DNA of 49,665 nucleotides. Source: Mycobacterium phage prophiCCUG48898T-1. Where the stretch lies: the sequence record OQ417974.1; one strand, written 5' to 3'. This document shows positions 1 through 49,665 of the stretch, one piece after another (positions within the stretch are counted from its first letter, which is position 1; each line of letters opens with the position of its first letter). Position numbers and translations under genes: made by a program. Under the pieces are notes generated by a model, which had not been told where the DNA came from, searched no databases, and saw only the letters and a program-made list of their open reading frames with translations.

Positions 1-18
1 TACTCGTGAGTAAGAACT
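1..18. repeat. Left copy of 18-bp direct repeat TACTCGTGAGTAAGAACT (candidate attL core, or circular-overlap end)
   Basis: Exact match to 49648-49665. It lies inside the 3' part of the leftward repressor ORF. Confidence 0.75.
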
Positions 19-290
19 GTGCTACTCGCCTCCTCCGTGGCTAGCTGCCCGCCCCACATAAGCCATTCGCGGCTCGCTCCGGTCGCCCGATGAATCGCCT
101 GAATCTTCTCGGTGAGCTTGTGAGGACTGCGCCCGCTTTCAATCCCTTGTAGGGCATTCTCGGTCAATCCAGTGAGCTGGGAAAACTCCCTGCGGCTCAT
201 CCTGAGCGCATTTCGCAGGACAACAACCCTGGCGGCAAGAGTGTCTGCCGGAACCCAGTTGTTCCCGTGAACCTTCTCTGCTGTCGTCAT
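1..290 (-). CDS. Immunity repressor, XRE-family HTH (CI-like). ATG at 290 on the minus strand; no stop codon before the window edge. If the ends are joined, the ORF would terminate at 49548 and give 129 aa.
   Basis: Translation MTTAEKVHGNNWVPADTLAARVVVLRNALRMSRREFSQLTGLTENALQGIESGRSPHKLTEKIQAIHRATGASREWLMWG... shows a typical XRE HTH. It is divergent from the cro-like gene. It is absent from the ORF track, which lists stop-terminated ORFs only. Confidence 0.7.
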   Translation of the reverse strand, partial: MTTAEKVHGNNWVPADTLAARVVVLRNALRMSRREFSQLTGLTENALQGIESGRSPHKLTEKIQAIHRATGASREWLMWGGQLATEEASSTVLTHE

Positions 291-410
291 GGGTAAATGA
301 TGACATCTCTGCAATCTGCATGCAAGAAGATTGCATGCTTGAGCTGCAAGTAAACAGTTCATTCCTAAGTGATGCTTGCAATCAAATTTCATGCATGTAA
401 TTATTTCGGC
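291..410. promoter_or_regulatory. Divergent repressor/cro intergenic switch region, AT-rich for this genome, with repeated GCATGC-centred and TGCAATC motifs (candidate operators and promoters)
   Basis: tgcatgcaag at 317-326, ttgcatgcttg at 331-341, ctgcaag at 344-350, tgcaatc at 310-316 and at 377-383. GC is locally much lower than the flanks. Confidence 0.5.
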
Positions 411-602
411 ATGAGCGCAAAACTTCTGCTGATCGAGGCTCGGCTCGGTGGTCGAAGACTCCCCGAACTCGTCGGCGCACGCCGGGCACAGGGCAAGTCC
501 TGGCAGGGCATCGCCAACGAAATCCACGACATGACCGGCGTTGCGGTGTCCCGAGAGTCCTTGCGTGCCTGGTGCAATCAGTCCAAGGCGGTGGCCTCGT
601 GA
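411..602 (+). CDS. Cro-like small HTH regulator (track ORF 369..602; likelier start ATG 411)
   Basis: MSAKLLLIEARLGGRRLPELVGARRAQGKSWQGIANEIHDMTGVAVSRESLRAW is HTH-like. It is divergent from the repressor and is the first gene of the rightward early operon. Confidence 0.5.
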   Translation: MSAKLLLIEARLGGRRLPELVGARRAQGKSWQGIANEIHDMTGVAVSRESLRAWCNQSKAVAS

Positions 603-1366
603 GCGCGCCAGTGATCGTTTCCCCGTTCGACGCGATCCGTCACCTGACTGACGAGGGCCGCGAGTACTGGTCGGCACGTGATCTCATGCCGCTGCTCGGA
701 TACGAGAAGTGGGAGCGGTTCGCCGACGCCATCAGCCGTGCCAAGCTTGCCGCCCGCAATGCTGGGTACGACGCAGCGCAAAACTTTCCCGCCTCCGGGA
801 AAGTTTCTGGGAGCCGAGGACCGGCACAGGCTGACTACCACCTCTCCCGGTACGCCTGCTATCTCGTCGCACTCAATGGCGATCCACGCAAGCCTGAAAT
901 CGCAGCCGCGCAGACATACTTCGTCATCAAGACCCGTGAGGCCGAGACCGCCACGGCCGCGCCCGCGCTCACGGGCACCGACCTACTCGCCGCCGCCGTG
1001 CTCGAAGCCCAGCGGATGATCGAGGCCAAGGATGCTCGAATCGCCGAGCTGGAGCCCAAGGCCGACCTTGCAGATACATACCTCACTGCACAGGGTGGGT
1101 CCCGGTTGATCCGGGAAGCCGCCAAGCTGCTCGGCATGCGCGAGCGCGAGTTTCGCCAGTGGCTCCTGGATGAGCGGCTGATCTTCGCCAAACACGCTCC
1201 GTGCGGCGCGGTGCAGTACGACCACTACGCGCAGTTCACGCACTACTTCCAAGCGCACGAGCACGTCGTCGCGCACTCATGGGGCAGCTGTGCCCACTAC
1301 ACCTTGCGCATTCTGCCGCGAGGGATGGAACTCATCACCGCACGCTTGGGCCGAATCTCCAAGTAA
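572..1366 (+). CDS. Antirepressor (Bro-N N-terminal domain plus KilA-C-like C-terminal domain); alternative GTG start at 599
   Basis: N-terminal motif FDAIRHLTDEGREYWSARDLMPLLGY is typical of Bro-N/AntA. The C-terminal region ADTYLTAQGGSRLIREAAKLLGMREREFRQWLLDERLIF is KilAC-like. Confidence 0.75.
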   Translation: MQSVQGGGLVSAPVIVSPFDAIRHLTDEGREYWSARDLMPLLGYEKWERFADAISRAKLAARNAGYDAAQNFPASGKVSGSRGPAQADYHLSRYACYLVALNGDPRKPEIAAAQTYFVIKTREAETATAAPALTGTDLLAAAVLEAQRMIEAKDARIAELEPKADLADTYLTAQGGSRLIREAAKLLGMREREFRQWLLDERLIFAKHAPCGAVQYDHYAQFTHYFQAHEHVVAHSWGSCAHYTLRILPRGMELITARLGRISK

Positions 1367-1394
1367 TCGCAAGTCCCACAACTGAATAAGTAAA

Positions 1395-1435
1395 GACGCT
1401 GGCGGTCCCGTCGCCAAACAGAAACCGCCAGCGTC
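1395..1435 (+). terminator. Strong hairpin (12-bp perfect stem gacgctggcggt/accgccagcgtc, 17-nt loop) after the antirepressor gene; possible intrinsic terminator or attenuator without a U-tract
   Basis: The inverted repeat is read directly from the sequence. Confidence 0.4.
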
Positions 1436-1468
1436 CCCTACCAACCAATCCTACTGAGAGGACTTGGC

Positions 1469-1855
1469 ATGCCCCAACATATCCGCAGGCGGTCGCACGG
1501 GCGCCGCCGACCCCGGCTGAGCAGCTACGACGCGATCACCATTGTGCTAGCCGCTATCGCGGTGCTCGCCGCGATGCTGCTGGCCTCCCCGGACTCGCAC
1601 GCCGACCCGGTGACCGATGACTTCGTGACGACGAGCGGCTGGCGCGTGTGCAACGAGCTGGACGCGCAGCCCAATTTCGACGGCATCCGGTACTCATACC
1701 GGGCACTGTCCGCGCGCGGCTACAGCCTCGATCAGTCGGCCCAGATCATCGTGGGATCGGTGAAGGTGTGGTGCAAACGCCATGCACCACTGCTCAAGTC
1801 ATACGCCGACACCTATGCTTCCGCGCCGCAGCAGAGCCAGGGGCGTGCGGCATGA
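1469..1855 (+). CDS. Small secreted or membrane-anchored protein (N-terminal basic region plus hydrophobic signal/anchor, predicted cleavage near SHA/DP)
   Basis: MPQHIRRRSHGRRRPRLSSYDAITIVLAAIAVLAAMLLASPDSHADP...; two Cys in the mature part. Confidence 0.5.
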   Translation: MPQHIRRRSHGRRRPRLSSYDAITIVLAAIAVLAAMLLASPDSHADPVTDDFVTTSGWRVCNELDAQPNFDGIRYSYRALSARGYSLDQSAQIIVGSVKVWCKRHAPLLKSYADTYASAPQQSQGRAA

Positions 1856-2172
1856 CCATCACCTTTGACCCCAACCCGACGTTCGACGAGCTCATGGCCG
1901 CGTTCGACAAGGCCGAGCAGAAGTGCTCCCCCAGCGTCGTGAATATCATCCTGGATCTCGAAATCGCCGATCTGTTCGAGAGATTGGGCAATCGCGGCAT
2001 CGCCGTATTGGTCGCCAATCAGAAGGCGTGGCGCGAGTCCGTCAAGGAGTCCGGTACAGACCCGCGATGCGCCTGGACCACCGACGCTAGCGCCGAGGTC
2101 GTGCTCGTCGAGTTCTTCACCGATCGCGACAACCGGGACAAAGCCAGCGCCGTGCTCAAGGCGGATGCGTAA
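1852..2172 (+). CDS. Hypothetical protein (106 aa)
   Basis: ATGA overlap with the upstream stop; in operon context. Confidence 0.5.
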   Translation: MTITFDPNPTFDELMAAFDKAEQKCSPSVVNIILDLEIADLFERLGNRGIAVLVANQKAWRESVKESGTDPRCAWTTDASAEVVLVEFFTDRDNRDKASAVLKADA

Positions 2173-2459
2173 TGACCGAGGGCACAACACATACCGCGAC
2201 CGGGTTCCTGATTCTCGAAGCATCCAGATACAGGTACGGACTCGCTGGCGAGGACGGACTCAGGCCGGTTGATGGCCTGCGCATCGTTGGCCAGCGCGCG
2301 AACCGACCGGCGAAACTGGCCCGTGACCAGATCGCCGTCAAGGTAGCGATCACCATCGACGACGCCGAATTCTCCCCTATTACAGCGACACTCGCGCTCA
2401 CCCTCGACCCGTCGCGGGTCATCCATCCGGTTGTCGAGGATCTGGAGCCTGGCGAGTGA
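2172..2459 (+). CDS. Hypothetical protein (95 aa)
   Basis: The start overlaps the upstream stop (TAATG). Confidence 0.45.
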   Translation: MTEGTTHTATGFLILEASRYRYGLAGEDGLRPVDGLRIVGQRANRPAKLARDQIAVKVAITIDDAEFSPITATLALTLDPSRVIHPVVEDLEPGE

Positions 2460-2662
2460 ATCGGTACTACTGCCCCGTGTGTTGGGCCCGAGTAAAGCGC
2501 TCCAGCGGAGGCAATATCACGGGGCATTTCGACACCGTGACCAGGCCTTGCCCCGCTTCGGGATACCCGTTCTCCATTGCGTTGATAACCCCGCTCAACG
2601 GTGCCGGGTTGCGGAACACCATCAAGCGGATTCACGAGCTACGAGAGGCGATTGCCGCATGA
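2456..2662 (+). CDS. Small Cys-containing hypothetical protein (CPVC...CP motif)
   Basis: 68-aa ORF; GTG start overlaps the upstream stop. Confidence 0.4.
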   Translation: MNRYYCPVCWARVKRSSGGNITGHFDTVTRPCPASGYPFSIALITPLNGAGLRNTIKRIHELREAIAA

Positions 2663-3552
2663 CAACTACCGCCGAAATCCCCACCGCTGACGGCCTATAC
2701 AGCGGTATTCCTGATGAGGTCTACCACGCTGACCGCACCAGCTTGTCGTCGTCGGGTGCTCGTGCACTGCTGGCGCCGTCCTCGCCCGAGATCTTCCACT
2801 ACCAGCAGGGGCAACCGCCAGAACCCAAGCCGCAATACGACTTCGGGCACGTTGCCCACAAGTTCGTGCTGGGCGAAGGCGCCGATATCTGCGAGCTAGA
2901 TCCGGCCGTTCACGGGCTGAACAAGGATGGCTCCCCCGCCAAGTCGCCCACCGCCACCGCGATGTGGCAGGCAGCGGCCGAGGAAGCGCGCAAGGCCGGT
3001 CAGATCCCGATGCACATCGCCGAGGTGGCCAAGGCCAAAGCGATGGCAGCCAGGGTGCACGAGCACCCGCTCGCCGGGCCGCTACTAGCCGACGGGACAC
3101 CGGAGCTGTCCGGGTACTGGCACGACCGGGAGACGGGCGTGCGCCTGCGGTTCCGGCCCGACTGGCTGCCCAACCCCGGCCGGGGACGGCTGATCGTCGT
3201 GGACTACAAGACAAGCTCCAGCGCCTACCCGGGCCACTTCGCCAAGTCCGCAGCCGAATACGGCTACCACCAGCAGGCGCCGTGGTATCTGGACGGCCTG
3301 GCCGCGTGCGAGATCGCCGACGACGCCGCGTTCCTGTTCGTCGTCCAGTCCAAAACGGCGCCCTACCCGATCACCGTGGTCGAGCTCAAGCCCGAAGACA
3401 TCGACCTCGGCCGGCGCCGCAACCGCAAGGCCATCGACCTGTACGCCCAATGCGTCGCCGATGACCACTGGCCCGGCTACGGCGACCACGTGCACTCGGT
3501 ATCGCTCCCCAGTTACGCCACCTACCAGCAAGAAGGAGAACTCGATCAGTGA
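2659..3552 (+). CDS. RecB-family PD-(D/E)XK exonuclease (RecE/Cas4-like nuclease domain, lacking the Cas4 Cys cluster)
   Basis: Motifs LIVVDYKTSSS (D-x-K) and YGYHQQAPWY (QxxxY) are typical of RecB-family nucleases. ATG at 2659 lies within track ORF 2431..3552. Confidence 0.7.
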   Translation: MTTTAEIPTADGLYSGIPDEVYHADRTSLSSSGARALLAPSSPEIFHYQQGQPPEPKPQYDFGHVAHKFVLGEGADICELDPAVHGLNKDGSPAKSPTATAMWQAAAEEARKAGQIPMHIAEVAKAKAMAARVHEHPLAGPLLADGTPELSGYWHDRETGVRLRFRPDWLPNPGRGRLIVVDYKTSSSAYPGHFAKSAAEYGYHQQAPWYLDGLAACEIADDAAFLFVVQSKTAPYPITVVELKPEDIDLGRRRNRKAIDLYAQCVADDHWPGYGDHVHSVSLPSYATYQQEGELDQ

Positions 3553-4670
3553 CCGTCACCCCCTACCAGCCCATCTCACCCGCACCGCGCACAACGGTCA
3601 GCCAAGCCACCTCAGTCGAACAGTCGCGCGCCGTCGCCGAGGTCCAATCCGCCGTCATCGTGGCCCAGCAGATCCCGCGTGACATGCAGCGGGCCGAAGC
3701 GGAGATGCGCGATACGTGCAATCGATCCGCGATGGCGAAACAGGCCTTCTACCAAGTGCCGAACCGAGGCAACGGCGCATCGGTGCACCTCATGCGCGAA
3801 CTCGCGCGAGTCTGGGGCAACGTGCAGTACGGCGTCAACGAGCTGCACCGCGACGACTCCCGGGGCGAGTCGGAGGTTCAGGCGTGGGCGTGGGATGTGC
3901 AGACCAACACCCGCTCTACGCGCACCTTCATCGTCCCTCATGCCCGCATGTCAAAGGGGCGCCGCCAAGAACTCACCGACCTTGGTGACATCACGAACAA
4001 CAACAACAATGCGGGCGCTCGCGCTGTCCGTGAGTGCATCAACGCCATCTTGCCCAAGTGGTTTACCGAAGCGGCACAGGACATCTGCAAGGCCACGCTG
4101 GAGAACGGCGAGGGCGTGCCCTTGCCCAAGCGCATCGAGGACATGATCGCCGGATTCCGTGCCATCGGCGTCTCCCAGGCGCAATTGGAGACCAAGATCG
4201 GCAAGAAGCGCGGCGCCTGGGATGCGGGCGATGTCGCGCAGATGGGCATCACCTATACCTCGATCACCCGCGACGGCTACGACAAAGCCGAGATGTTCCC
4301 GCCGCTCGCGGGAGTGACAACCGACGAGATCAAGGCCAAGGCCCCGGACAAACCGAAGGCCGAAGCGACACCAGCTCCCGAGAAGGCACCAAGCCCGGAG
4401 AAGGTCGAGGAAGCGCCCGAGGCCAACCCCGCTGAATACAACTCGCGCGGTGAGTTTCTGGCCACCAAAAAGACCATCGGCACCATCCGCGGGCTGCTCG
4501 GCAACGCGGGCTATTCCCTGCGCGGCGATGCGGCCACCGTCAAGACGCTCACCTATCTGGCCACTGTCGTCGGCCGCGAAATCGCCGATGTCAACGACCT
4601 ATCCGAAGCCGAGGCCGAGGTAGTGACCGACGTTCTGAACCAACCCACCACAACAGAAGGGAATGAATAA
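3549..4670 (+). CDS. Putative single-strand annealing protein (RecT-like), with a Pro/Lys/Ala/Glu-rich linker and a C-terminal domain
   Basis: It lies directly downstream of the PD-(D/E)XK exonuclease and is translationally coupled to it, as in RecET-like modules. It has the low-complexity linker APDKPKAEATPAPEKAPSPEKVEEAPEA. The family call is an inference. Confidence 0.5.
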   Translation: MTVTPYQPISPAPRTTVSQATSVEQSRAVAEVQSAVIVAQQIPRDMQRAEAEMRDTCNRSAMAKQAFYQVPNRGNGASVHLMRELARVWGNVQYGVNELHRDDSRGESEVQAWAWDVQTNTRSTRTFIVPHARMSKGRRQELTDLGDITNNNNNAGARAVRECINAILPKWFTEAAQDICKATLENGEGVPLPKRIEDMIAGFRAIGVSQAQLETKIGKKRGAWDAGDVAQMGITYTSITRDGYDKAEMFPPLAGVTTDEIKAKAPDKPKAEATPAPEKAPSPEKVEEAPEANPAEYNSRGEFLATKKTIGTIRGLLGNAGYSLRGDAATVKTLTYLATVVGREIADVNDLSEAEAEVVTDVLNQPTTTEGNE

Positions 4671-4672
4671 CC

Positions 4673-5014
4673 ATGTCCGACAACGACACCGAGAAGAAAG
4701 AGGAAGGCACCGAACTCGCGCCAGGTGACATCACCGAGTTCATCGTCGTATTCACTCAGCTCAACAAGGGCCGCACTCAGCTCGAAGCAACCAAGGCTCT
4801 GCACGAGGTCGTCGAGGCCGCGATGGCCACCGGTAAGAAGACCGGCACCGTCACGATCAAGATCAAGGTCGAGCCGCTGGAGTCCGGCGCAGTCAGCCTC
4901 GTGCCCGATGTCACCAGCAACCCTGCCAAGGACCCGGCCGGAACGATTTTCTTCGCCGACGGCGAGGGCGGCCTATCCCGCGACAACGCCAGCATGCACT
5001 ACGGCCTCAGGTAA
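4673..5014 (+). CDS. Hypothetical protein (113 aa)
   Basis: ORF with a good AAGGGAATGAATAACCATG spacing context. Confidence 0.5.
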   Translation: MSDNDTEKKEEGTELAPGDITEFIVVFTQLNKGRTQLEATKALHEVVEAAMATGKKTGTVTIKIKVEPLESGAVSLVPDVTSNPAKDPAGTIFFADGEGGLSRDNASMHYGLR

Positions 5015-5041
5015 CCCAACCCACCCGAAGGAGTAACACCC

Positions 5042-5878
5042 ATGTCCGACAACACCATTGCACTACCAAAGCACGACGCCGATCTGATCGACGAGCCCGA
5101 CGCCGACACCCCGCTCTACCTCGTCACCGCCAACGGCGAGAACGGCCTCCAGACCGAGGTTGTCGACGTACGGGGCAAGGTACCCGCCGCGTTCCCGCCG
5201 CGCGCACCTGAGCGCCGAACCGTCACCGACACCGCCTCATTCCTTGCCGAGGTCACCCGCCGGCCACTACTCCAAGGCCTCTCGACCGTCTGGGGGAACC
5301 GCGACAAGGGGCAGGTCAGCGTCATCTACAACGAACTCGGCACGGACGCGACGGCGGACTACACCCGCCGAAACGATCTGCTCACTCTTCAGTTCGTCGC
5401 GGACCCGGACTGGGCGACCCTATTTAAGGCCGCTGACGGCGAGTACCACGGCCAGGAGAAGTTTGGCGATTTAATCGAGCAGGCCGGACACCTGATCACC
5501 AGCCATCCGGCCGCCGAGGTCGTTGAAATCGTCGACAGCATCCAGTCATCCAGCAATGGGTCATTCAAGTCTCAGATCAAGCGCGACACCGGAAGTCAGC
5601 ACCTCACCTACAGCGAGGAAGTCACCGCATCGGCGGGCACCGCCACCCGGCCACTTGAAGTACCGCGAGAGATCACGCTCGCTGCGCGGCCGTTCGAGGA
5701 CTACCCGCTGATCGAGGTGACGTGCTGGCTGCGCCTGCGCGTGAGCCAGGGGCAGCTATTCCTGGGGTTGTTCCCCAAGCCATATGAGCACTTGGTGCGC
5801 GATGCCTGGACGCAGAAGACCGGCGAGCTGTCCGAAGCACTCGGGGTGCCCGTCTACGCCGCCAACCTCGGCAAGTAG
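5042..5878 (+). CDS. Hypothetical protein (278 aa); possibly DUF2303/YfdQ-like, a family often found beside phage recT genes
   Basis: RBS GAAGGAG precedes the ATG. Its position within the recombination module supports the call. The family assignment is not verified. Confidence 0.5.
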   Translation: MSDNTIALPKHDADLIDEPDADTPLYLVTANGENGLQTEVVDVRGKVPAAFPPRAPERRTVTDTASFLAEVTRRPLLQGLSTVWGNRDKGQVSVIYNELGTDATADYTRRNDLLTLQFVADPDWATLFKAADGEYHGQEKFGDLIEQAGHLITSHPAAEVVEIVDSIQSSSNGSFKSQIKRDTGSQHLTYSEEVTASAGTATRPLEVPREITLAARPFEDYPLIEVTCWLRLRVSQGQLFLGLFPKPYEHLVRDAWTQKTGELSEALGVPVYAANLGK

Positions 5879-5905
5879 CCCCACTAACCAAGTAGAGGAG
5901 ACCTG

Positions 5906-6439
5906 ATGTCCCGCAACCTCATCGTCGTAGACCTGGAAACAACCGGCCTCGGCCCGCAGTGCGCGCCGATCGAGGTTGCGGCCATCAACGTCGACACCGG
6001 AGAAACACTCGAATTCGTGCCGTACGTCGACCTGTCCAAGGTCTCGATCGAGCCCCAGGCATTCGCCATCAACCGATATTTCGAACGCGGTGTGTATGAC
6101 GTAATGCTCAATCCCGACAACACCATCACAGCGTGGAATGACCTCGCCGACATCCTGAGCGGCAACACCTTTGCCGGATCGAACCCGACATTCGACGCAG
6201 CCATGGTCGCACGCAAGGTTGGCACGCACTGGCACTACCGCCTGGCCGACCTCGCCGCCTACGCCGCCCCAGCGCTTGGCCGCGACCCGTCCGAGCTGCC
6301 GGGACTGGCCGACGTACTCGACGCCCTCAAGATCGAGAACCGTTGCCCACACTCGGCACTCGGCGACGCCGAAGCAACCGCCAAAGCATTCGTGAAGCTG
6401 CGCGACATCTACGCAGAACAGCGGGAGTCCGCGCGATGA
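5906..6439 (+). CDS. DnaQ-like 3'-5' exonuclease (DEDDh family)
   Basis: Exo I motif VVDLETTGL; Exo III motif HSALGDAEAT; RBS GAGGAGACC. Confidence 0.75.
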   Translation: MSRNLIVVDLETTGLGPQCAPIEVAAINVDTGETLEFVPYVDLSKVSIEPQAFAINRYFERGVYDVMLNPDNTITAWNDLADILSGNTFAGSNPTFDAAMVARKVGTHWHYRLADLAAYAAPALGRDPSELPGLADVLDALKIENRCPHSALGDAEATAKAFVKLRDIYAEQRESAR

Positions 6440-45416: not shown

Positions 45417-45917
45417 CTACCCGGCGTCGGCGAATTCGGGTTGCTCGCGCAAGTGCCAGCCCGGCGCAACGTCCAGGTGGTTGTAGTAGTGCTGGAACAG
45501 CTCGATAGCTTCAGCGGCGGATAGGACCTCTGACGGTCGTACCAGGTACTCACTGTCGCCGTTGTAGACCGTCTCTGACTGCTCGGATTCATTTGCCGCA
45601 GAAGGCCGTCCGATGGTGTACATACGCCGAACGCCATCGGACTCTTTCCGGCGGATTTCGACGGTCAGGCGCTCGGCGGTGGCCCCGCAAGTCTGAATCC
45701 ACTCATGAGGGTATGGGAACTCGTCGTACTCAGTGCCATCGGGGACCTTATAGATCGAGAACGCCACGTCTGCGACACCATCCCGATCTTCGCCGATCGA
45801 GTTGATATTTATTTCGATCTGCCGGTGCGCCTTCCCTGGCTCAGCGCCCATCCACATAATGAAATCTTTGTCGGTAGTGTATGTATGCATCTGAAAACCA
45901 TTGCGCTCAAGACTCAT
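45417..45917 (-). CDS. Candidate immunity protein for the upstream toxin
   Basis: Its ATG overlaps the toxin stop (ATGA). 166-aa cytoplasmic acidic protein. Confidence 0.5.
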   Translation of the reverse strand: MSLERNGFQMHTYTTDKDFIMWMGAEPGKAHRQIEININSIGEDRDGVADVAFSIYKVPDGTEYDEFPYPHEWIQTCGATAERLTVEIRRKESDGVRRMYTIGRPSAANESEQSETVYNGDSEYLVRPSEVLSAAEAIELFQHYYNHLDVAPGWHLREQPEFADAG

Positions 45918-47566
45918 TCGCCCGCCACCTTAATTACCTCTACCTCAGTGACTTTCACCGTCTCGACTTCCCCGCTCCTGTTTGTGATCGTAACGTAGGC
46001 CGGATTCTCTGGAGTTACGGCCGAGTCGAACGCTCGCTGCTCTGCATTGCGTGTGGCATCACCGGATTTGACCTCAATACCTTTGTAAGTGCCGTCTGAC
46101 TTCTGCGCCAAACCATCGTAGTAGCGGCCATTCTCGACCCCATCGACCTTGGCCTTACGACGCTCAGTGCTCACCCATTCGTCCGGGTTAGCGCGCCGAT
46201 AACGATCGATACCCTCTGCCTCTGGTTGGCGACCGTATCCTCGGGCTGTGCCGCCTCGGCCTGTGAATGTGCCGATGGAATCGCGGTCGTCGCCACGGTT
46301 GATGCCCTCGCCGGGTCGTCCAGTCCGGGCCTCCATCACCGTCACGCCGTTGACCGCAGCCTCTTTCGAGAGGTCGAGGGCTGGCGGTATGGCGACGACC
46401 GCGCCACCAGCGAGTAAGCCCGCCCCGGCAACAGCGACAGGCGCCGCGACCGGTGTCGCGGCCCCACCGGTGAAGACCTCACCGACGCCCGCCGCAGCCA
46501 TCATGTCGTAGCCGACCGCCATCATGCCGACTCCAGCTGCCATCTGGATTGTCTGGCCGGGGTTGTCGATCATGGCCTGCCCCAAGGATGCAGTGGCGTT
46601 CACTACCGGGGCCACGGTGTTGTATATCTCGTTTCCGAAAAGCTCAACCTGCATCTGTACCAACGACTTTAGGGTGTCGATGACCATCGATGCGCCCTGG
46701 ATGATCGGCGCCAGCAGCAGCGCGAGCGACTGCACTTCCGACTTGAACTGGTTGACGATGTTGCGGATGTCGGCGGCGATTTTCTTTATTTCGTCGTCGT
46801 CTTCGCCGGTAATCCAGTCCACGACCTGTTTGGCACCGGTCAGCGGATTTACCAAGCGGGCCAACAGGTCCAGTATCGATGCGTGCGCCGTATCGATCTT
46901 GGCCGCGTAGTCGTTGAGCTTGGTGCCCATGGTGCTGCACATGCCGCCGACCTCGCCGACAGCACCGTCAATCGTCTTGAACGCGCTATCGATCTTGGGA
47001 CCTTCGGGGATCTGCTGGGCCTGCGCGGTTGCCTGCGCCCCCGCTAGTCCGGCCTGCTGAGCGGTGAATGCCGCACCGGCAGCCGTCCACGCGGCGCCAG
47101 CGGCGCGCAGCTTCGCCGAATCACCATTGGGCCAAATCATTCCGATGAACGGCTCCACCAGGAACCAACCGGGTGGGTCGCCAACATCGCTACCCACCGC
47201 AGACGGTGGGGTCCCGGCCTTCACCGCGGGAGTGGGTGAGGCGGCGGGCAGTGGGTCGCCGCCCTTGCCGTCGATGTTGGATGCCACCTCGGCACGCGAA
47301 TAGTTGGTCGCCGAGGCCCGGATGCCGTCAGCGGCCCGCCCGGCACCGTTGGACACGTCCACCATCGCCTCAAGGAGTTCCTTGGCTGACGAGTCATACG
47401 ATCGCGCGAACACGATCCCGGCGGGGTCATCCCCACCCATACCGGCCGAACTCGACAGCGCCGACTGCAATGCCGACAGCGCAGAGCCCCACCCGCCCAC
47501 CGAGCTGGAGACCGTTCTACCGGCGCCATCGAGGGCAACCGGGTCGACATGAATCGGGGGTGCCAT
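45914..47566 (-). CDS. Polymorphic toxin. N-terminal WXG100-like ESX/T7SS secretion domain (GGWGS and YSRAE), Gly/Ala-rich hydrophobic linker, C-terminal PD-(D/E)xK-like domain. Start ATG 47566; the track extension to 47725 is spurious.
   Basis: N-terminal DGAGRTVSSSVGGWGSALSALQ...SATNYSRAEVAS matches WxG and YxxxE. C-terminal YYDGL...GIEVKSGD...RNAEQRAFD matches D...ExK...Q. It sits directly downstream of an Esx-like pair. Confidence 0.65.
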   Translation of the reverse strand: MAPPIHVDPVALDGAGRTVSSSVGGWGSALSALQSALSSSAGMGGDDPAGIVFARSYDSSAKELLEAMVDVSNGAGRAADGIRASATNYSRAEVASNIDGKGGDPLPAASPTPAVKAGTPPSAVGSDVGDPPGWFLVEPFIGMIWPNGDSAKLRAAGAAWTAAGAAFTAQQAGLAGAQATAQAQQIPEGPKIDSAFKTIDGAVGEVGGMCSTMGTKLNDYAAKIDTAHASILDLLARLVNPLTGAKQVVDWITGEDDDEIKKIAADIRNIVNQFKSEVQSLALLLAPIIQGASMVIDTLKSLVQMQVELFGNEIYNTVAPVVNATASLGQAMIDNPGQTIQMAAGVGMMAVGYDMMAAAGVGEVFTGGAATPVAAPVAVAGAGLLAGGAVVAIPPALDLSKEAAVNGVTVMEARTGRPGEGINRGDDRDSIGTFTGRGGTARGYGRQPEAEGIDRYRRANPDEWVSTERRKAKVDGVENGRYYDGLAQKSDGTYKGIEVKSGDATRNAEQRAFDSAVTPENPAYVTITNRSGEVETVKVTEVEVIKVAGE

Positions 47567-47570
47567 CGCG

Positions 47571-47861
47571 CTATGCCCAGTTCTGCATGTTCTTGGCAGC
47601 GGCGCCTGTGTAATTGCCGTGCGCGGCGTGGCTCGCGCTACGTAGGCCCTTGAGCGCTTCGCGCATCTGCTCGGCGCCCTTGGCCCACTTCTCGTGCGCC
47701 TGCGTGTGGGCCGTGGCAGCTTCACCTGTGAAGGTGGCGTGCAGGTTGTGAACCTCGGTGTCCATGGCCGCTATCGACGCCTCGGCTCGCTGCTCAACCT
47801 CTGCCATGCGTTCGATGATCCGCATGAGCTCGTCGGGCACAACGCCGAATTCACCTGACAT
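47571..47861 (-). CDS. Esx-like small helical protein (WXG100-family partner, EsxB-like)
   Basis: 96 aa, MSGEFGVVPDELMRIIERMAEVEQRAEASIAAMDTEVHNLHATFTGEAATAHTQAHEKWAKGAEQM. Its stop lies 4 nt upstream of the toxin start. Confidence 0.55.
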   Translation of the reverse strand: MSGEFGVVPDELMRIIERMAEVEQRAEASIAAMDTEVHNLHATFTGEAATAHTQAHEKWAKGAEQMREALKGLRSASHAAHGNYTGAAAKNMQNWA

Positions 47862-48279: not shown

Positions 48280-48636
48280 CTATTCCGTCGCGATTCCAGA
48301 CTGGTCGGGCACCGCTCTCAGTCCACGGCGCGGTGACCGAGCTTGTAAGTCTCGGACCGCTGCCGCGAAGCTATCGGCCATCCGGCGCACGTAGTCCTCA
48401 TCGACGTAGGCCTTGGCCGACTGCCGGCTGATGCCCATCAGCTCGGCGGTCAGGTCGACTTTCGCCGAAATACGCTCTCGCGCCATGGCCTCGGTCATGT
48501 TCAGGGCGTGCTGCTCAGCGAGATAGCGCACGAGCAACTGGGCGCGTTCATTCATCCAGGGGGACCGGCGAGCGGGCATTCGGAGACCATATGGGCATCC
48601 CCTCGTGCCCGCTGGCCGACCTCCTAGATGTGACAC
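48280..48636 (-). CDS. Small HTH-like protein immediately downstream of int (alternative start ATG 48556)
   Basis: MNERAQLLVRYLAEQHALNMTEAMARERISAKVDLTAELMGISRQSAKAYV is a putative HTH. Confidence 0.4.
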   Translation of the reverse strand: MSHLGGRPAGTRGCPYGLRMPARRSPWMNERAQLLVRYLAEQHALNMTEAMARERISAKVDLTAELMGISRQSAKAYVDEDYVRRMADSFAAAVRDLQARSPRRGLRAVPDQSGIATE

Positions 48637-49527
48637 CTACTTGTGACTGCGCTGTTCCATTCTCGATGCCGACGACCGCGAGGGGCACAAGTGCGACGCG
48701 AGCGAGTCGACGGACGCCGCTCCACGTCGGGTCGAGTAAGCGAGGTACCGCATGGTGGTCGCCAGGCTCTCGTGCCCCATCAATTCCTGGATATCGCGGA
48801 GGTCCGCGCCTTCGTCGGCGAGCACGGTCGCGAACCTGTGTCGCAGGGTGTGCAGCGTGTACGGGAGCCCGAGATTGGTTAGGAATTCCGCACCCACGAC
48901 CGAGACGTAGTTGGGTGTGACTGGCCCGCCGCGGGGACGGCAGAACATGGTGCCGGGTCGGCTCAGCTGAATTGCCAGACGTTGCATGACCTCGGGGGCA
49001 ACTCGGACGATGCGTTGCTTCCCTCCCTTACCGTGCACGGTCAGGAAGGCGCCGCCGCCTTCATCGGGGCGAAAGTCGTTGCGTGACATCTGCGCGATCT
49101 CCCCAGCGCGCAGACCGCAGTATCCGGCCAATAGCAGCCATGCATGGATGTCAGTCCCGACAGGCGCGCCGGTCAGCGCGATCCGCAAGTGGTCCTCGGG
49201 GATGGGCCGGGCCATACGGCGCTGAATCTTCGGTTGCACCAAGTCTTTTGCGACGTATTCGCTCGTGCGCCCACATCGGTAGGCCCACTGATAGAAGGTG
49301 CAAACATGCGACGTGTAGGTCTGGATGCTAGACGGGCACACCCGCAACGAACCCTGCCAGGCCTCAAGCTGCTCCGGGGTGGCCTCCAGCAAAGATGTTT
49401 CCCCAAGCCATCTAGCTAATCTAGCAATCTGCCCCAAGCGGTGCTCGATCGTTTTAGCTGTGAAGTTCTTCAGCTTCAGATAACGAGCAAACTCTGAGAC
49501 GACAGTGTCATTATTCACAGGTGACAT
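48637..49527 (-). CDS. int: Tyrosine integrase (site-specific recombinase, XerC/D-like catalytic domain)
   Basis: YCGLRAGEI (Arg I), LHTLRHRFAT (HxxR) and LMGHESLATTMRY (His and Tyr nucleophile). Adjacent to the att repeat. Confidence 0.85.
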   Translation of the reverse strand: MSPVNNDTVVSEFARYLKLKNFTAKTIEHRLGQIARLARWLGETSLLEATPEQLEAWQGSLRVCPSSIQTYTSHVCTFYQWAYRCGRTSEYVAKDLVQPKIQRRMARPIPEDHLRIALTGAPVGTDIHAWLLLAGYCGLRAGEIAQMSRNDFRPDEGGGAFLTVHGKGGKQRIVRVAPEVMQRLAIQLSRPGTMFCRPRGGPVTPNYVSVVGAEFLTNLGLPYTLHTLRHRFATVLADEGADLRDIQELMGHESLATTMRYLAYSTRRGAASVDSLASHLCPSRSSASRMEQRSHK

Positions 49528-49647
49528 AAGTACAGCCCGTCCTTTTGCTAGGAAACCGAACGGGTGGACTTGTTGCAGGTCAGTTGCTTCCCCGAGCGGA
49601 AACCGTGACCTGAGCTGGCGCGCCGGAACGCGGACTTATACGGTTCA

Positions 49648-49665
49648 TACTCGTGAGTAAGAACT
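49648..49665. repeat. Right copy of 18-bp direct repeat (candidate attR core); about 120 bp upstream of the integrase start codon
   Basis: Exact match to 1-18. The repeat may be longer, but the window ends here. Confidence 0.75.

What the first reader, a model, noticed from the sequence alone, without database searches (positions are those of the whole stretch)
1..420. The att core lies inside the 3' end of the repressor ORF, with int downstream in the same orientation: the layout of integration-dependent immunity
The leftward XRE repressor ORF (ATG at 290) reads through the 18-bp terminal repeat and has no stop before the window edge. Joining the ends extends it by 33 codons to a stop at 49548. 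The integrase (49527-48637, same strand) would then lie immediately downstream of the repressor. This is the arrangement described for mycobacteriophage integration-dependent immunity (Broussard et al. 2013; BPs, Brujita, Charlie). There, attP sits within the repressor gene, so the viral-form and prophage-form repressors have different C-termini. The prophage form is truncated and stable.
Basis: partly seen in the sequence, partly recalled or inferred. Interest (0 to 1): 0.8.

Follow-up and report, generated by a model that had tools for sequence, protein, structure and literature searches.

The report
Known prophage switch: att inside repressor

Summary
An exact 18-bp repeat bounds the window. 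The leftward HTH repressor ORF (ATG 290) runs off the left edge after 96 codons plus TA. Joining the ends gives a 129-aa ORF (stop 49550-49548), and a 296-aa tyrosine integrase starts 20 nt downstream.

Six sequenced lysogens carry the junction host...T|core, so the repressor ends ...VLTHE-TAA. The exact 96-aa protein is a called gene in 369 blocks of the assembly collection. Empty attB sites and attR junctions were also found, and the lytic relative phiGD57-1 carries the contiguous 129-aa gene.

By length, cluster and attB, the window matches prophiCCUG48898T-1 (cluster MabC, attB-13). Dedrick et al. 2021 already assign integration-dependent immunity to MabC, and GenBank records of relatives annotate it. 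Hence: already known, low interest. Instability of the viral form is inferred, not shown. Neither Rep nor Int has an -AA tag.

Additional points:
- attB-13 is a 24-bp palindrome broken only by a central GT.
- One arm base toggles Tyr and stop.
- A related integrase module uses the same site in the opposite orientation, including a head-to-head double prophage. The two M. abscessus prophage papers I searched mention neither the palindrome nor the opposite orientation.

The parts
1..18 (.). attL copy of the common core. It comprises TAC (the last 3 bases of the left arm), TCGTGA (putative overlap, 4-9) and GTAAGAACT (the P' arm, 10-18).
   Evidence: Exact repeat of 49648-49665. The same 18-mer is found at attB, attL and attR in Mycobacteroides genomes.
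3..290 (-). Repressor body, the prophage form: 96 codons, MTTAEK...STVLTHE. Bases 2-1 (TA) are the first two bases of the stop codon, or of Tyr97 in the viral form.
   Evidence: Translation. Pfam HTH_3 and HTH_31, PHROG repressor families. The exact 96-aa protein is a called gene in 369 blocks of assemblies. Six attL junctions read ...THE*. The AlphaFold2 model places the HTH helices at 18-79 with pLDDT 81-91.
49548..49647 (-). 3' end of the viral-form repressor gene: the third base of Tyr97, 32 further codons (EPYKSAFRRASSGHGFRSGKQLTCNKSTRSVS) and TAG. Integration separates it from the repressor body.
   Evidence: Circular join. The same tail lies in the contiguous gene 35 of phiGD57-1. A 33-codon tail with the same stop position is kept in 6 divergent modules. 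It is predicted to be disordered.
49528..49547 (-). 20-nt rep-int spacer, CAAAAGGACGGGCTGTACTT, containing an AAGGA ribosome-binding motif. No terminator was found.
48637..49527 (-). Simple, arm-less tyrosine integrase of 296 aa. Catalytic residues are R140, K170, H226, R229, H252 and Y261. The C-terminus is ...EQRSHK, with no -AA tag.
   Evidence: Pfam Phage_integrase plus SAM-like domains. The best solved-structure match is 5VFZ chain A, deposited as 'Gp33' (E 7e-21, end-to-end); that this is Brujita integrase gp33 is from my own knowledge. Motif positions. The exact protein occurs in 730 blocks of assemblies, next to the host gene at attR.
49642..49665 (.). attR recombination site: P arm GGTTCATAC (49642-49650), overlap TCGTGA (49651-49656) and B' arm GTAAGAACT (49657-49665). 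The 18-bp core copy is 49648-49665.
   Evidence: Comparison of attP, attB, attL and attR. attB is AGTTCTTAC-TCGTGA-GTAAGAACT, a palindrome except for the central GT.
49653..49655 (+). GTG start codon of the host gene to the right of attB (MAB_3947, adh_short/KR family, 295 aa). It lies inside the core.
   Evidence: Gene calls in L022-L026 map the host gene start to this base. Junction sequences. The paper states that the core overlaps the start of MAB_3947.
291..410 (.). rep-cro intergenic control region, 39% G+C against 64% for the whole window.
318..338 (.). Operator candidate O1, GCATGCAAgaagaTTGCATGC, a perfect 8-5-8 palindrome on the rep-proximal side.
   Evidence: 2 matches in the window against 0.25 expected. 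It is conserved in every relative carrying this repressor and absent from relatives with other repressors.
374..394 (.). Operator candidate O2, GCTTGCAAtcaaaTTTCATGC, on the cro-proximal side.
   Evidence: An O2-like site sits at the same place before cro in the remote repressor homologues L037 and L038.
411..602 (+). cro-like first rightward gene (63 aa). An alternative GTG start at 369/372 gives 76-77 aa.
   Evidence: ORF list. Gene calls of 63 or 76 aa in lysogens. Annotated as an HTH protein in phiGD57-1. No Pfam or PHROG hit.
599..1366 (+). Antirepressor (Bro-N plus ANT/KilAC domains). This is an extra component not found in the minimal three-gene switch.
   Evidence: Annotated as antirepressor in relatives.
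48280..48636 (-). ORF immediately downstream of int, annotated in relatives as a helix-turn-helix DNA-binding protein. Its function is unknown. I found no evidence that it is an excisionase.
   Evidence: No Pfam or PHROG hit.

Best explanation
The window is an integrated Mycobacterium abscessus prophage of cluster MabC. By length, cluster and attB it matches prophiCCUG48898T-1. It is delimited by the two copies of the attB-13 common core and uses an integration-dependent immunity switch.

In the circular (viral) genome, PRep transcribes an operon made of rep (129 aa) and int (296 aa). attP lies in codons 92-97 of rep, within a disordered C-terminal extension behind the HTH domain. The arm-less Int recombines attP (GGTTCATAC-TCGTGA-GTAAGAACT) with the palindromic host site (AGTTCTTAC-TCGTGA-GTAAGAACT).

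Integration does three things:
- It leaves rep at one prophage end and int at the other, so int loses PRep.
- It replaces the P arm with the host B arm. That one-base change turns Tyr97 (TAT) into TAA, which gives a 96-aa repressor without the 33-residue tail.
- It places the GTG start of host MAB_3947 behind phage DNA.

Shown here: the layout, both protein forms, all four att sites, and that the 96-aa gene is called in many M. abscessus assemblies.

Inferred from BPs, Brujita and Charlie: the 129-aa form is unstable or inactive and the 96-aa form maintains lysogeny by binding O1 and O2. For this phage the degradation signal must be something other than an ssrA-like -AA tag.
For: - Repeat and ORF geometry.
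- Six attL junctions read ...THE-TAA, with the A supplied by the host.
- The 96-aa protein is a called gene in 369 blocks of assemblies and the Int in 730.
- Eight empty attB sites and two further attR junctions in other Mycobacteroides genomes.
- The lytic relative phiGD57-1 carries contiguous genes for a 129-aa repressor and Int.
- A partial viral-form protein (P0121, 36 member sequences) runs to contig ends in M. abscessus assemblies.
- Dedrick 2021 assigns integration-dependent immunity to MabC at attB-13. It states that the stop is formed by the first host base.
- Amarh 2023 lists prophiCCUG48898T-1 as MabC, 49,665 bp, attB-13, and detected attP by PCR.
- Int is Xer-sized, and its best solved-structure match is PDB 5VFZ chain A ('Gp33'), which I take from memory to be Brujita Int.
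- Remote repressor homologues have -AA tails and are followed by int.
- The tail is disordered in the model, and its length is conserved.
- The operator candidates co-vary with the repressor.
Against: - Neither the viral Rep tail (...STRSVS) nor Int (...RSHK) ends in -AA, so the canonical ClpXP/ssrA-type signal is absent. The paper says the same.
- I found no experimental test of the two MabC repressor forms in the papers I read.
- pN/pS of the tail is only 0.65-0.75 and is no better than one alternative frame. Selection on the tail as a peptide is therefore not demonstrated.
- An antirepressor and an uncharacterised ORF downstream of int lie beyond the minimal three-gene switch.
- attB is not a tRNA gene, unlike the M. 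smegmatis phage examples.
Confidence: 0.85

Rival explanations
1. The overlap is incidental and immunity is conventional. The att core happens to lie in a dispensable disordered C-terminal extension of the repressor, both forms are equally active and stable, and the lysis-lysogeny decision does not depend on integration.
For: There are no ssrA-like -AA tags on Rep or Int. The codon-level signal of selection on the tail is weak. The truncation leaves the folded HTH domain intact. An antirepressor gene offers a conventional induction route.
Against: The same arrangement recurs in at least four related att modules: attB-12, attB-13 in both orientations, and attB-14. In all of them a Tyr codon in the P arm becomes TAA in the host arm. 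The tail is exactly 33 codons in 6 divergent modules. Homologous repressors elsewhere carry -AA tails upstream of int. int always loses its promoter on integration.
Confidence: 0.1
2. The tail region is conserved for a DNA-level role rather than as a degron. It would hold integrase or accessory binding sites of attP, or a promoter or leader for int or for host MAB_3947. The extra peptide would then be a by-product, although truncation and loss of int expression would still occur.
For: The conserved blocks are DNA blocks: CTTATACGGTTCATAC, GAGCGGAAACCGTGACC and TTGTTGCAGGTCAG. pN/pS in the rep frame is no lower than in frame +1. The phage DNA to the left of the core must provide whatever upstream signals MAB_3947 retains.
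Against: A module with a different core (prophi100A-2) still ends ...SHRFASAGFLSCNNSRHPVSK. That resembles GHGFRSGKQLTCNK at the protein level even though the DNA differs. No sigma-70-like promoter was detected, although the scan is not tuned to mycobacteria. No further copies of the half-site lie within 300 bp.
Confidence: 0.15
3. The 18-bp terminal repeat is an assembly or circularisation overlap of a non-integrating phage, and the 129-aa ORF is the only form that ever exists.
For: None beyond the bare fact that the window has identical ends.
Against: attB, attL and attR junctions with host DNA were found in many genomes. The published prophage coordinates also argue against it.
Confidence: 0.01

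Closest known systems
Integration-dependent immunity of cluster MabC/MabN/MabO Mycobacterium abscessus prophages (Dedrick et al. 2021, mBio, PMC8092301; Amarh et al. 2023, PLoS One, PMC9934374)
   Same: It is the same system. It uses attB-13, which overlaps the start of MAB_3947. attP lies within rep, and the stop codon is made by the first host base. There are no -AA tags on Rep or Int, and a polymorphic toxin cassette sits next to attR. The window's length (49,665 bp), cluster and attB match prophiCCUG48898T-1. Its right end is 100% identical to prophiGD51-1, and its repressor is 127/129 identical to phiGD57-1 gp35.
   Different: Nothing differs in kind. Several points are not mentioned in the two papers, which I searched for 'palindrom', 'orientation' and 'inverted'. 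These are the palindromic nature of attB-13, the Tyr/stop toggle common to related modules, and the use of the site in the opposite orientation.
Integration-dependent immunity of mycobacteriophages BPs (cluster G), Brujita (I1) and Charlie (N) (Broussard et al. 2013; Broussard and Hatfull 2013, PMC3694055; Villanueva et al. 2015, PMC4557955)
   Same: A rep-int operon faces a divergent cro. attP lies inside rep. The prophage form is 33 residues shorter (BPs 136 to 103, here 129 to 96). As in BPs, the stop is created by the host base adjacent to the core. Int is arm-less, with no RDF. Palindromic operators lie in the rep-cro intergenic region.
   Different: attB is a palindrome at the start of a protein-coding gene, not the 3' end of a tRNA gene. 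The core is 18 bp rather than about 35 bp. Rep and Int have no ssrA-like tag. An antirepressor follows cro. The repressor is not a close homologue of BPs gp33, since no such hit appeared in the searches.
Brujita integrase gp33, a simple arm-less tyrosine integrase (Lunt and Hatfull 2016, cited in PMC8138268); PDB 5VFZ is deposited only as 'Gp33', and its identity with Brujita Int is from my own knowledge
   Same: It is the best solved-structure sequence match (E 7e-21, residues 19-277 aligned to 32-285). It has only core-binding and catalytic domains and is about 300 aa long. Its att site is a simple pair of inverted arms.
   Different: The match is distant: the aligned stretch covers most of both proteins, but HMMER scored it at only 78 bits. 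It recognises a different att sequence. Directionlessness and promiscuity have not been tested for this Int.
XerC/XerD-dif and Cre-loxP type simple recombination sites
   Same: Two inverted 9-11 bp arms surround a short central region, and the asymmetry of that region alone sets the orientation.
   Different: Here the asymmetry is reduced to a central GT. The site is embedded in a coding sequence whose reading frame is exploited for regulation.

Membership tests
Integration-dependent immunity (Broussard et al. 2013 type switch) | The attP common core lies inside the repressor ORF, so the viral and prophage forms differ at the C-terminus. | tested here: met
   The core encodes residues 92-96 (VLTHE). 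The viral form is 129 aa and the prophage form 96 aa.
Integration-dependent immunity (Broussard et al. 2013 type switch) | In the viral genome, rep and int are adjacent, co-oriented and organised as an operon. Integration separates int from PRep. | tested here: met
   The gap is 20 nt and holds an RBS, with no terminator-like site. The genes are contiguous in phiGD57-1. In lysogens int sits at attR and rep at attL. Co-transcription itself is inferred.
Integration-dependent immunity (Broussard et al. 2013 type switch) | The prophage form is truncated by a stop codon generated at attL. | tested here: met
   TAA is made of phage TA plus host A on the coding strand in six lysogen genomes. All 8 empty attB sites have T immediately to the left of the core.
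Integration-dependent immunity (Broussard et al. 2013 type switch) | A cro-like gene is divergent across a 100-300 bp control region that contains operators. | tested here: met
   A 120-bp region of 39% G+C holds two 21-bp palindromic sites that co-vary with the repressor. The cro-like ORF has no family hit, so its identity rests on position and on the annotation of relatives.
Integration-dependent immunity (Broussard et al. 2013 type switch) | [quoted passage not shown] | tested here: not met
   The tail ends ...STRSVS. Five related tails also lack -AA. Remote homologues do end in -AA. The literature treats MabC as a member that uses 'other signals', like BPs, so this feature is typical rather than strictly defining.
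Integration-dependent immunity (Broussard et al. 2013 type switch) | [quoted passage not shown] | tested here: not met
   Int ends ...MEQRSHK. The paper reports the same for MabC.
Integration-dependent immunity (Broussard et al. 2013 type switch) | There is no recombination directionality factor, the integrase is arm-less, and attP has no arm-type sites. | tested here: inconclusive
   Int is 296 aa with only SAM-like and catalytic domains, and its best PDB match is 5VFZ 'Gp33', which I take from memory to be Brujita Int. No excise gene is annotated among the 78 features of prophiGD51-1. No extra half-sites lie within 300 bp. However, the ORF at 48280-48636 downstream of int is uncharacterised, and a divergent RDF cannot be excluded.
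Integration-dependent immunity (Broussard et al. 2013 type switch) | Function: the viral form is unstable or inactive, the truncated form confers immunity, and lysogeny requires integration. | not testable with these tools
   There is only indirect support. The tail is predicted to be disordered, its length and motif are conserved, and the 96-aa gene is called in many M. abscessus assemblies.
Integration-dependent immunity (Broussard et al. 2013 type switch) | [quoted passage not shown] This holds for all M. smegmatis phage examples (PMC9262239). | tested here: not met
   There is no tRNA in the window. attB lies between the divergent genes adh_short-276 and MAB_3947 and contains the latter's GTG start. 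Dedrick 2021 records this as a known variant.
Cluster MabC M. abscessus prophages | Nucleotide similarity and gene content are shared with MabC members, and integration is at attB-13 or attB-12. | tested here: met
   Identity is 92-100% to prophiGD13-2, GD44-1, GD51-1 and 104-2 at both ends. The attB-13 flanks match. The length, 49,665 bp, equals that of prophiCCUG48898T-1.
Simple (arm-less, IntBrujita-like) tyrosine recombinases | Only core-binding and catalytic domains are present, the R-K-H-R-H-Y catalytic set is complete, and the recombination site is a simple inverted repeat. | tested here: met
   for the protein. for the 9-6-9 (or 11-2-11) inverted-arm site.

The most novel reading that the evidence does not exclude
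attB-13 is a 24-bp palindrome (AGTTCTTAC-TCGTGA-GTAAGAACT) whose only asymmetry is the central GT. Two related rep-att-int modules exploit this to integrate in opposite orientations.

MabC and MabN phages carry ...CTTAC-TCACGA-GTATG... on the rep coding strand (VLT-H-E-Y). An uncatalogued 304-aa-Int module carries ...TCGTGA... (VLT-R-E-Y). Its int end lies against the opposite host flank, and it also occurs head-to-head with a MabC prophage.

Because the arms are palindromic, the same one-base difference between the P arm (CATAC) and the B arm (CTTAC) turns Tyr into TAA in either orientation.

Orientation would then decide what the displaced host MAB_3947 promoter hits. In MabC it would run antisense into rep. 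In the reversed module it would run sense into int. In the reversed module it would also place MAB_3947 downstream of PRep-rep, which couples prophage stability to host gene regulation.
Probability: 0.5. Interest if true: 0.5.

Novelty: already known. Interest (0 to 1): 0.2.

Why it matters
The main finding only confirms a published annotation. It does have practical relevance. To use this phage's immunity as a selectable marker, or to engineer lytic derivatives for M. abscessus phage therapy, the 96-aa prophage form must be cloned rather than the 129-aa ORF, and removing int or attP should abolish lysogeny.

The side observations would matter more if confirmed. They suggest a compact design rule for these switches: a one-base arm asymmetry acts as a Tyr/stop toggle, and the central dinucleotide acts as both an orientation code and a codon. 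They also suggest that a simple palindromic attB can be occupied in either orientation or doubly, with different consequences for the neighbouring host gene.

Tried and rejected
- The Broussard 2013 primary paper is not held. I used the authors' addendum, the 2015 BPs repressor paper and the 2022 review instead.
I used the partial viral form P0121 instead.
- Sigma-70 promoter and terminator scans of the control region, the attR end and the host attB flank found nothing. The scan is not tuned to mycobacterial promoters, so this says nothing about PRep, PR or a promoter for MAB_3947.
- pN/pS of the tail in six frames was 0.65-0.75 in the rep frame and similar in frame +1. This neither proves nor refutes selection at the peptide level.
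- No tRNA or tmRNA was found in the window, so the attachment site is not a tRNA gene.
- I searched for the repressor of the reversed-orientation module, which should end in VLTRE. Two repressor-family searches returned only VLTHE, ILTPE and other endings. An IMG/VR scan for its attP gave 0 hits. Its int region has no megablast match among deposited phages. The rep-side junction of that module therefore remains unseen.
- The single 18-mer hit outside Mycobacteroides (Actinophytocola, L013) lies beside a TetR-like gene. It has no homologous downstream gene and is only half-palindromic, so I treat it as chance.
- The idea that the ORF downstream of int is an excisionase finds no support from Pfam or PHROGs, but it is not excluded.
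Full report
**Observation**

The window starts and ends with the same 18 bases, TACTCGTGAGTAAGAACT. They occur nowhere else on either strand.

On the minus strand an ORF starts at ATG 290 and reads 96 codons (MTTAEK...STVLTHE) to the left edge, leaving two bases (TA) and no stop. With one repeat copy removed and the ends joined, it continues for 33 codons (YEPYKSAFRRASSGHGFRSGKQLTCNKSTRSVS) to TAG at 49550-49548. The next gene on that strand is a 296-aa tyrosine integrase (49527-48637). It starts 20 nt later, behind an AAGGA motif.

The ORF product passes Pfam HTH_3 and matches PHROG repressor families. The integrase has SAM-like core-binding and catalytic domains only.

**What the window is**

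Both ends match M. abscessus prophages of Dedrick et al. 2021 at 92-100% identity: prophiGD13-2, GD44-1, GD51-1 and 104-2. The records of these relatives begin and end at the same core. They carry a split misc_feature, 'immunity repressor; the location of the phage attachment site (attP) within the immunity repressor...'.

The lytically propagated relative phiGD57-1 has one contiguous 129-aa 'immunity repressor' gene, 127/129 identical to the joined ORF here. The integrase gene follows it directly.

Table 2 of Amarh et al. 2023 lists prophiCCUG48898T-1 as cluster MabC, 49,665 bp, attB-13, Int-Y. That is exactly the window length. [quoted passage not shown] The window is therefore almost certainly that published prophage.

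**Is the repeat a real att core?**

Yes. A scan of species-representative genomes for the 18-mer found three kinds of hit:
- Eight empty sites in Mycobacteroides species, reading ...CATACAGTTCT|core|CGGTGAGC...
- Two attR-type junctions of related prophages.
- One unrelated hit.

The exact 96-aa protein is a called gene in 369 blocks of the assembly collection. In six lysogen genomes the junction reads host ...ACAGTTCT|TACTCGTGAGTAAGAACT|GTGCTACTCG... The repressor therefore ends ...CAC GAG TA+A, that is ...THE-stop, with the third base of TAA supplied by the host.

The exact integrase occurs in 730 blocks. At attR the core is followed by the host adh_short/KR gene (MAB_3947 in the paper), whose GTG start lies inside the core at window 49653-49655. 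The host gene to the left is a divergently transcribed adh_short gene (276 aa).

The two forms have different C-termini, 96 against 129 aa. The repeat is not an assembly overlap.

**Agreement with the literature**

Dedrick et al. 2021 state four things about MabC:
- MabC, together with MabB, H, K, N and O, has attP within rep.
- The prophage form is 20-35 residues shorter.
[quoted passage not shown] Amarh et al. 2023 detected the attP junction of this prophage by PCR, weakly and variably.

The defining features of the switch are given in the authors' addendum and in the 2022 review. They are a rep-int operon, attP within rep, C-terminal tags on both proteins, a divergent cro, no RDF and no arm-type sites.

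**Anatomy beyond the finding**

*Control region.* The 120-bp rep-cro spacer is 39% G+C, against 64% for the window. It holds a perfect 8-5-8 palindrome, GCATGCAAgaagaTTGCATGC (318-338), and a second copy with two mismatches (374-394). There are no others in the window, where 0.25 are expected by chance.

Both sites are present wherever this repressor is present, even in L019, whose other phage genes differ. They are absent from relatives with other repressors. An O2-like site sits just before cro in two remote repressor homologues. They are therefore good operator candidates. The promoters themselves were not found by the consensus scan.

*Repressor structure.* An AlphaFold2 model built on 21 family members gives five helices at residues 18-79 with pLDDT 81-91. 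Everything from about residue 84 onward is below 55. This includes the core-encoded VLTHE and the tail. Truncation therefore removes a disordered extension and leaves the fold intact.

*Tail conservation.* Six divergent modules all have a 33-codon tail that stops at the same position. They share YEPYK..R(R/N)AS(S/A)GH.FRS...LTCN(N/K), followed by about 7 variable residues, none ending in -AA. A module with a different core still ends ...SHRFASAGFLSCNNSRHPVSK.

pN/pS is only 0.65-0.75 and no better than one alternative frame. Whether the constraint acts on the peptide, on the DNA or on both is therefore open.

*Repressor family.* Remote homologues share the body W.P.DTLAARV..LR...TGLTEN.LQGIE.GRSP...WLMWGG.L. 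Many of them end in -AA: EVAA, LSAA, AVAA and AQAA. Two that I checked sit directly upstream of a roughly 300-aa integrase, with a divergent cro and, in one case, an antirepressor. The family as a whole is thus used in this kind of switch.

*Integrase.* The integrase aligns over nearly its whole length with PDB 5VFZ chain A, deposited as 'Gp33' (E 7e-21), and with Xer-type recombinases. That 5VFZ is Brujita Int is from my own knowledge. The catalytic residues R140, K170, H226, R229, H252 and Y261 are all present. No excise gene is annotated in the close relative prophiGD51-1. The ORF just downstream of int has no family match.

**The recombination site**

attB reads AGTTCTTAC-TCGTGA-GTAAGAACT. 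Its 11-bp arms are perfectly inverted around a central GT. attP reads GGTTCATAC-TCGTGA-GTAAGAACT.

The 18-bp 'core' is therefore the overlap, one full arm and 3 bases of the other arm. The first differing base, A in the phage arm and T in the host arm, is the base that turns TAT (Tyr97) into TAA.

The same logic holds in the related modules:
- attB-14 (MabO prophi91-3): CATAC-TCTGGA-GTAAG, repressor ...ILTPE|YES.
- attB-12 type (prophi100A-2): CATAC-TTTCGA-GTAAG, repressor ...LTRK|YGS.

In each module the P arm gives G-TAT-G on the coding strand and the host arm gives G-TAA-G. The length of the overlap (6 bp) and the cleavage positions are my inference from the symmetry. They are not shown.

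**Noticed while checking attR**

In one NCBI assembly (L025) the int end of a MabC-type prophage does not meet MAB_3947. It meets an inverted second tail and a second integrase (304 aa) across the perfect P-overlap-P palindrome GGTTCATAC-TCGTGA-GTATGAACC.

That integrase belongs to cluster P0015, which is 70% identical to the window's Int. In three independent Logan assemblies it lies as a single prophage with its int end against the left host flank (adh_short-276, ECH, CMD, Pirin, GGDEF). This is the flank that abuts the rep end of MabC prophages. The junction reads ...CAGTTCTTAC-TCGTGA-GTATGAACC..., followed by the tail ...VLTRE|YEPRKSGLRRSAKGHGLRSKEHLTCNNRQIKIT.

A related module therefore uses attB-13 in the opposite orientation. 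Relative to its own arms the central dinucleotide is flipped, which changes the repressor codon from CAC (His) to CGT (Arg).

Its rep-side junction could not be retrieved. Its int region has no close match among deposited phages. The two M. abscessus prophage papers do not mention a palindrome or an opposite orientation.

The consequences I draw are inference only. They are that the host MAB_3947 promoter would read into int in this orientation and antisense to rep in MabC, and that MAB_3947 would lie downstream of rep in the reversed module.

**Mechanism, with shown and inferred steps**

Shown:
- The two DNA states and the two protein forms.
- Separation of int from rep on integration.
- The origin of the stop codon.
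- The prophage form is called as a gene in many M. abscessus assemblies.

Shown by others for this cluster:
- Excision products (PCR).
- A viable lytic relative with the contiguous gene.

Inferred by homology of design with BPs, Brujita and Charlie:
- The 129-aa form is unstable or inactive.
- Int is limiting and unstable.
- The frequency of lysogeny is set by proteolysis.
- The 96-aa form binds O1 and O2 to shut off the rightward promoter.

The absence of -AA tags means that the degradation signal, if there is one, has not been identified.

**Verdict**

However, this is a published feature of a published prophage, so novelty is 'already known' and interest is low. The palindromic, bidirectionally used attB-13 and the Tyr/stop arm toggle are the only items that might add to what is in print. 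The reversed module still lacks its rep-side junction.

Noticed in passing
L025 3750-4001 (NCBI GCA_900136365.1, FSIP01000001.1); corresponds to window 49528-49665: Head-to-head double prophage. The int end of a MabC-type prophage is joined through GGTTCATAC-TCGTGA-GTATGAACC (P arm, overlap, inverted P arm) to a second 33-aa repressor tail and a second, 304-aa integrase pointing the other way. No host DNA lies between them.
   Followed up: yes
L030 4860-5001, L031, L032 (Logan assemblies ERR5412398, SRR6045076, ERR5413157): The 304-aa integrase module (P0015, 70% identical to the window's Int) sits as a single prophage with its int end against the left host flank of attB-13. This is the flank that abuts the rep end of MabC prophages. 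The same palindromic site is therefore used in the opposite orientation, with the central dinucleotide flipped relative to the phage arms (repressor ...VLTRE instead of ...VLTHE). The rep-side junction was not retrieved.
   Followed up: partly
window 49642-49665 and 1-18; attB in L007-L015: attB-13 is a 24-bp palindrome, AGTTCTTAC-TCGTGA-GTAAGAACT, broken only by the central GT. In this module and in the attB-12 and attB-14 modules, the phage int-side arm has CATAC (Tyr codon on the rep strand) and the host arm has CTTAC (TAA). The two M. abscessus prophage papers I searched do not mention the palindrome.
   Followed up: yes
window 49653-49655 and host flanks in L016-L026: The GTG start of host MAB_3947 (adh_short/KR, 295 aa) lies in the core. 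After integration its native upstream region sits at attL, pointing antisense into rep, and the gene itself follows phage DNA at attR. A TAnnnT hexamer (TACAGT in attB, TACGGT in attP) lies 8 nt upstream of the GTG in both, which may indicate a preserved -10 element for a leaderless transcript. This has not been tested.
   Followed up: partly
L039 3001-3370 (NCBI GCA_900140565.1, contig end); protein P0121: A partial viral-form repressor (body, core and 27 tail residues) runs to the contig end in M. abscessus isolate assemblies (36 member sequences). This implies that reads span an attP-type junction, from either excised circles or tandem prophages.
   Followed up: partly
L019 1-6000 compared with window 1-6000: One lysogen has the identical 96-aa repressor, operators and attL, but completely different downstream early genes and no antirepressor. 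This shows mosaic exchange immediately to the right of the immunity cassette.
   Followed up: no
window 45914-47861: A polymorphic toxin (603-aa ORF) with two WXG100 genes and an immunity gene lies next to int and attR. It is 96% identical to the cassette of the MabD prophage prophiGD17-1, as already reported for prophiCCUG48898T-1.
   Followed up: no
window 48280-48636 (minus strand): The ORF starting right after the int stop codon is annotated in relatives as an HTH DNA-binding protein. It has no Pfam or PHROG match, and gene callers disagree on its start (86-118 aa). Its role is unknown, and it is the only candidate for an accessory recombination factor.
   Followed up: partly
L013 4760-4777 (Actinophytocola oryzae): This is the only exact 18-mer match outside Mycobacteroides. 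It lies next to a divergent TetR-like gene, has no homologue of MAB_3947 downstream, and is only partly palindromic. It is probably chance.
   Followed up: yes
L033 8708-8731 and L034 (IMG/VR UViGs of about 43 kb): These carry a contiguous attP with a different (MabN-type) repressor body and the same tail and int module. The viral form, P0141, is 133 aa and reads ...NTVLTHEYEPYKRIGRRASSGHVFRSGKHLTCNNPAVASK. The att-tail-int module is thus shared between unrelated repressor bodies.
   Followed up: partly
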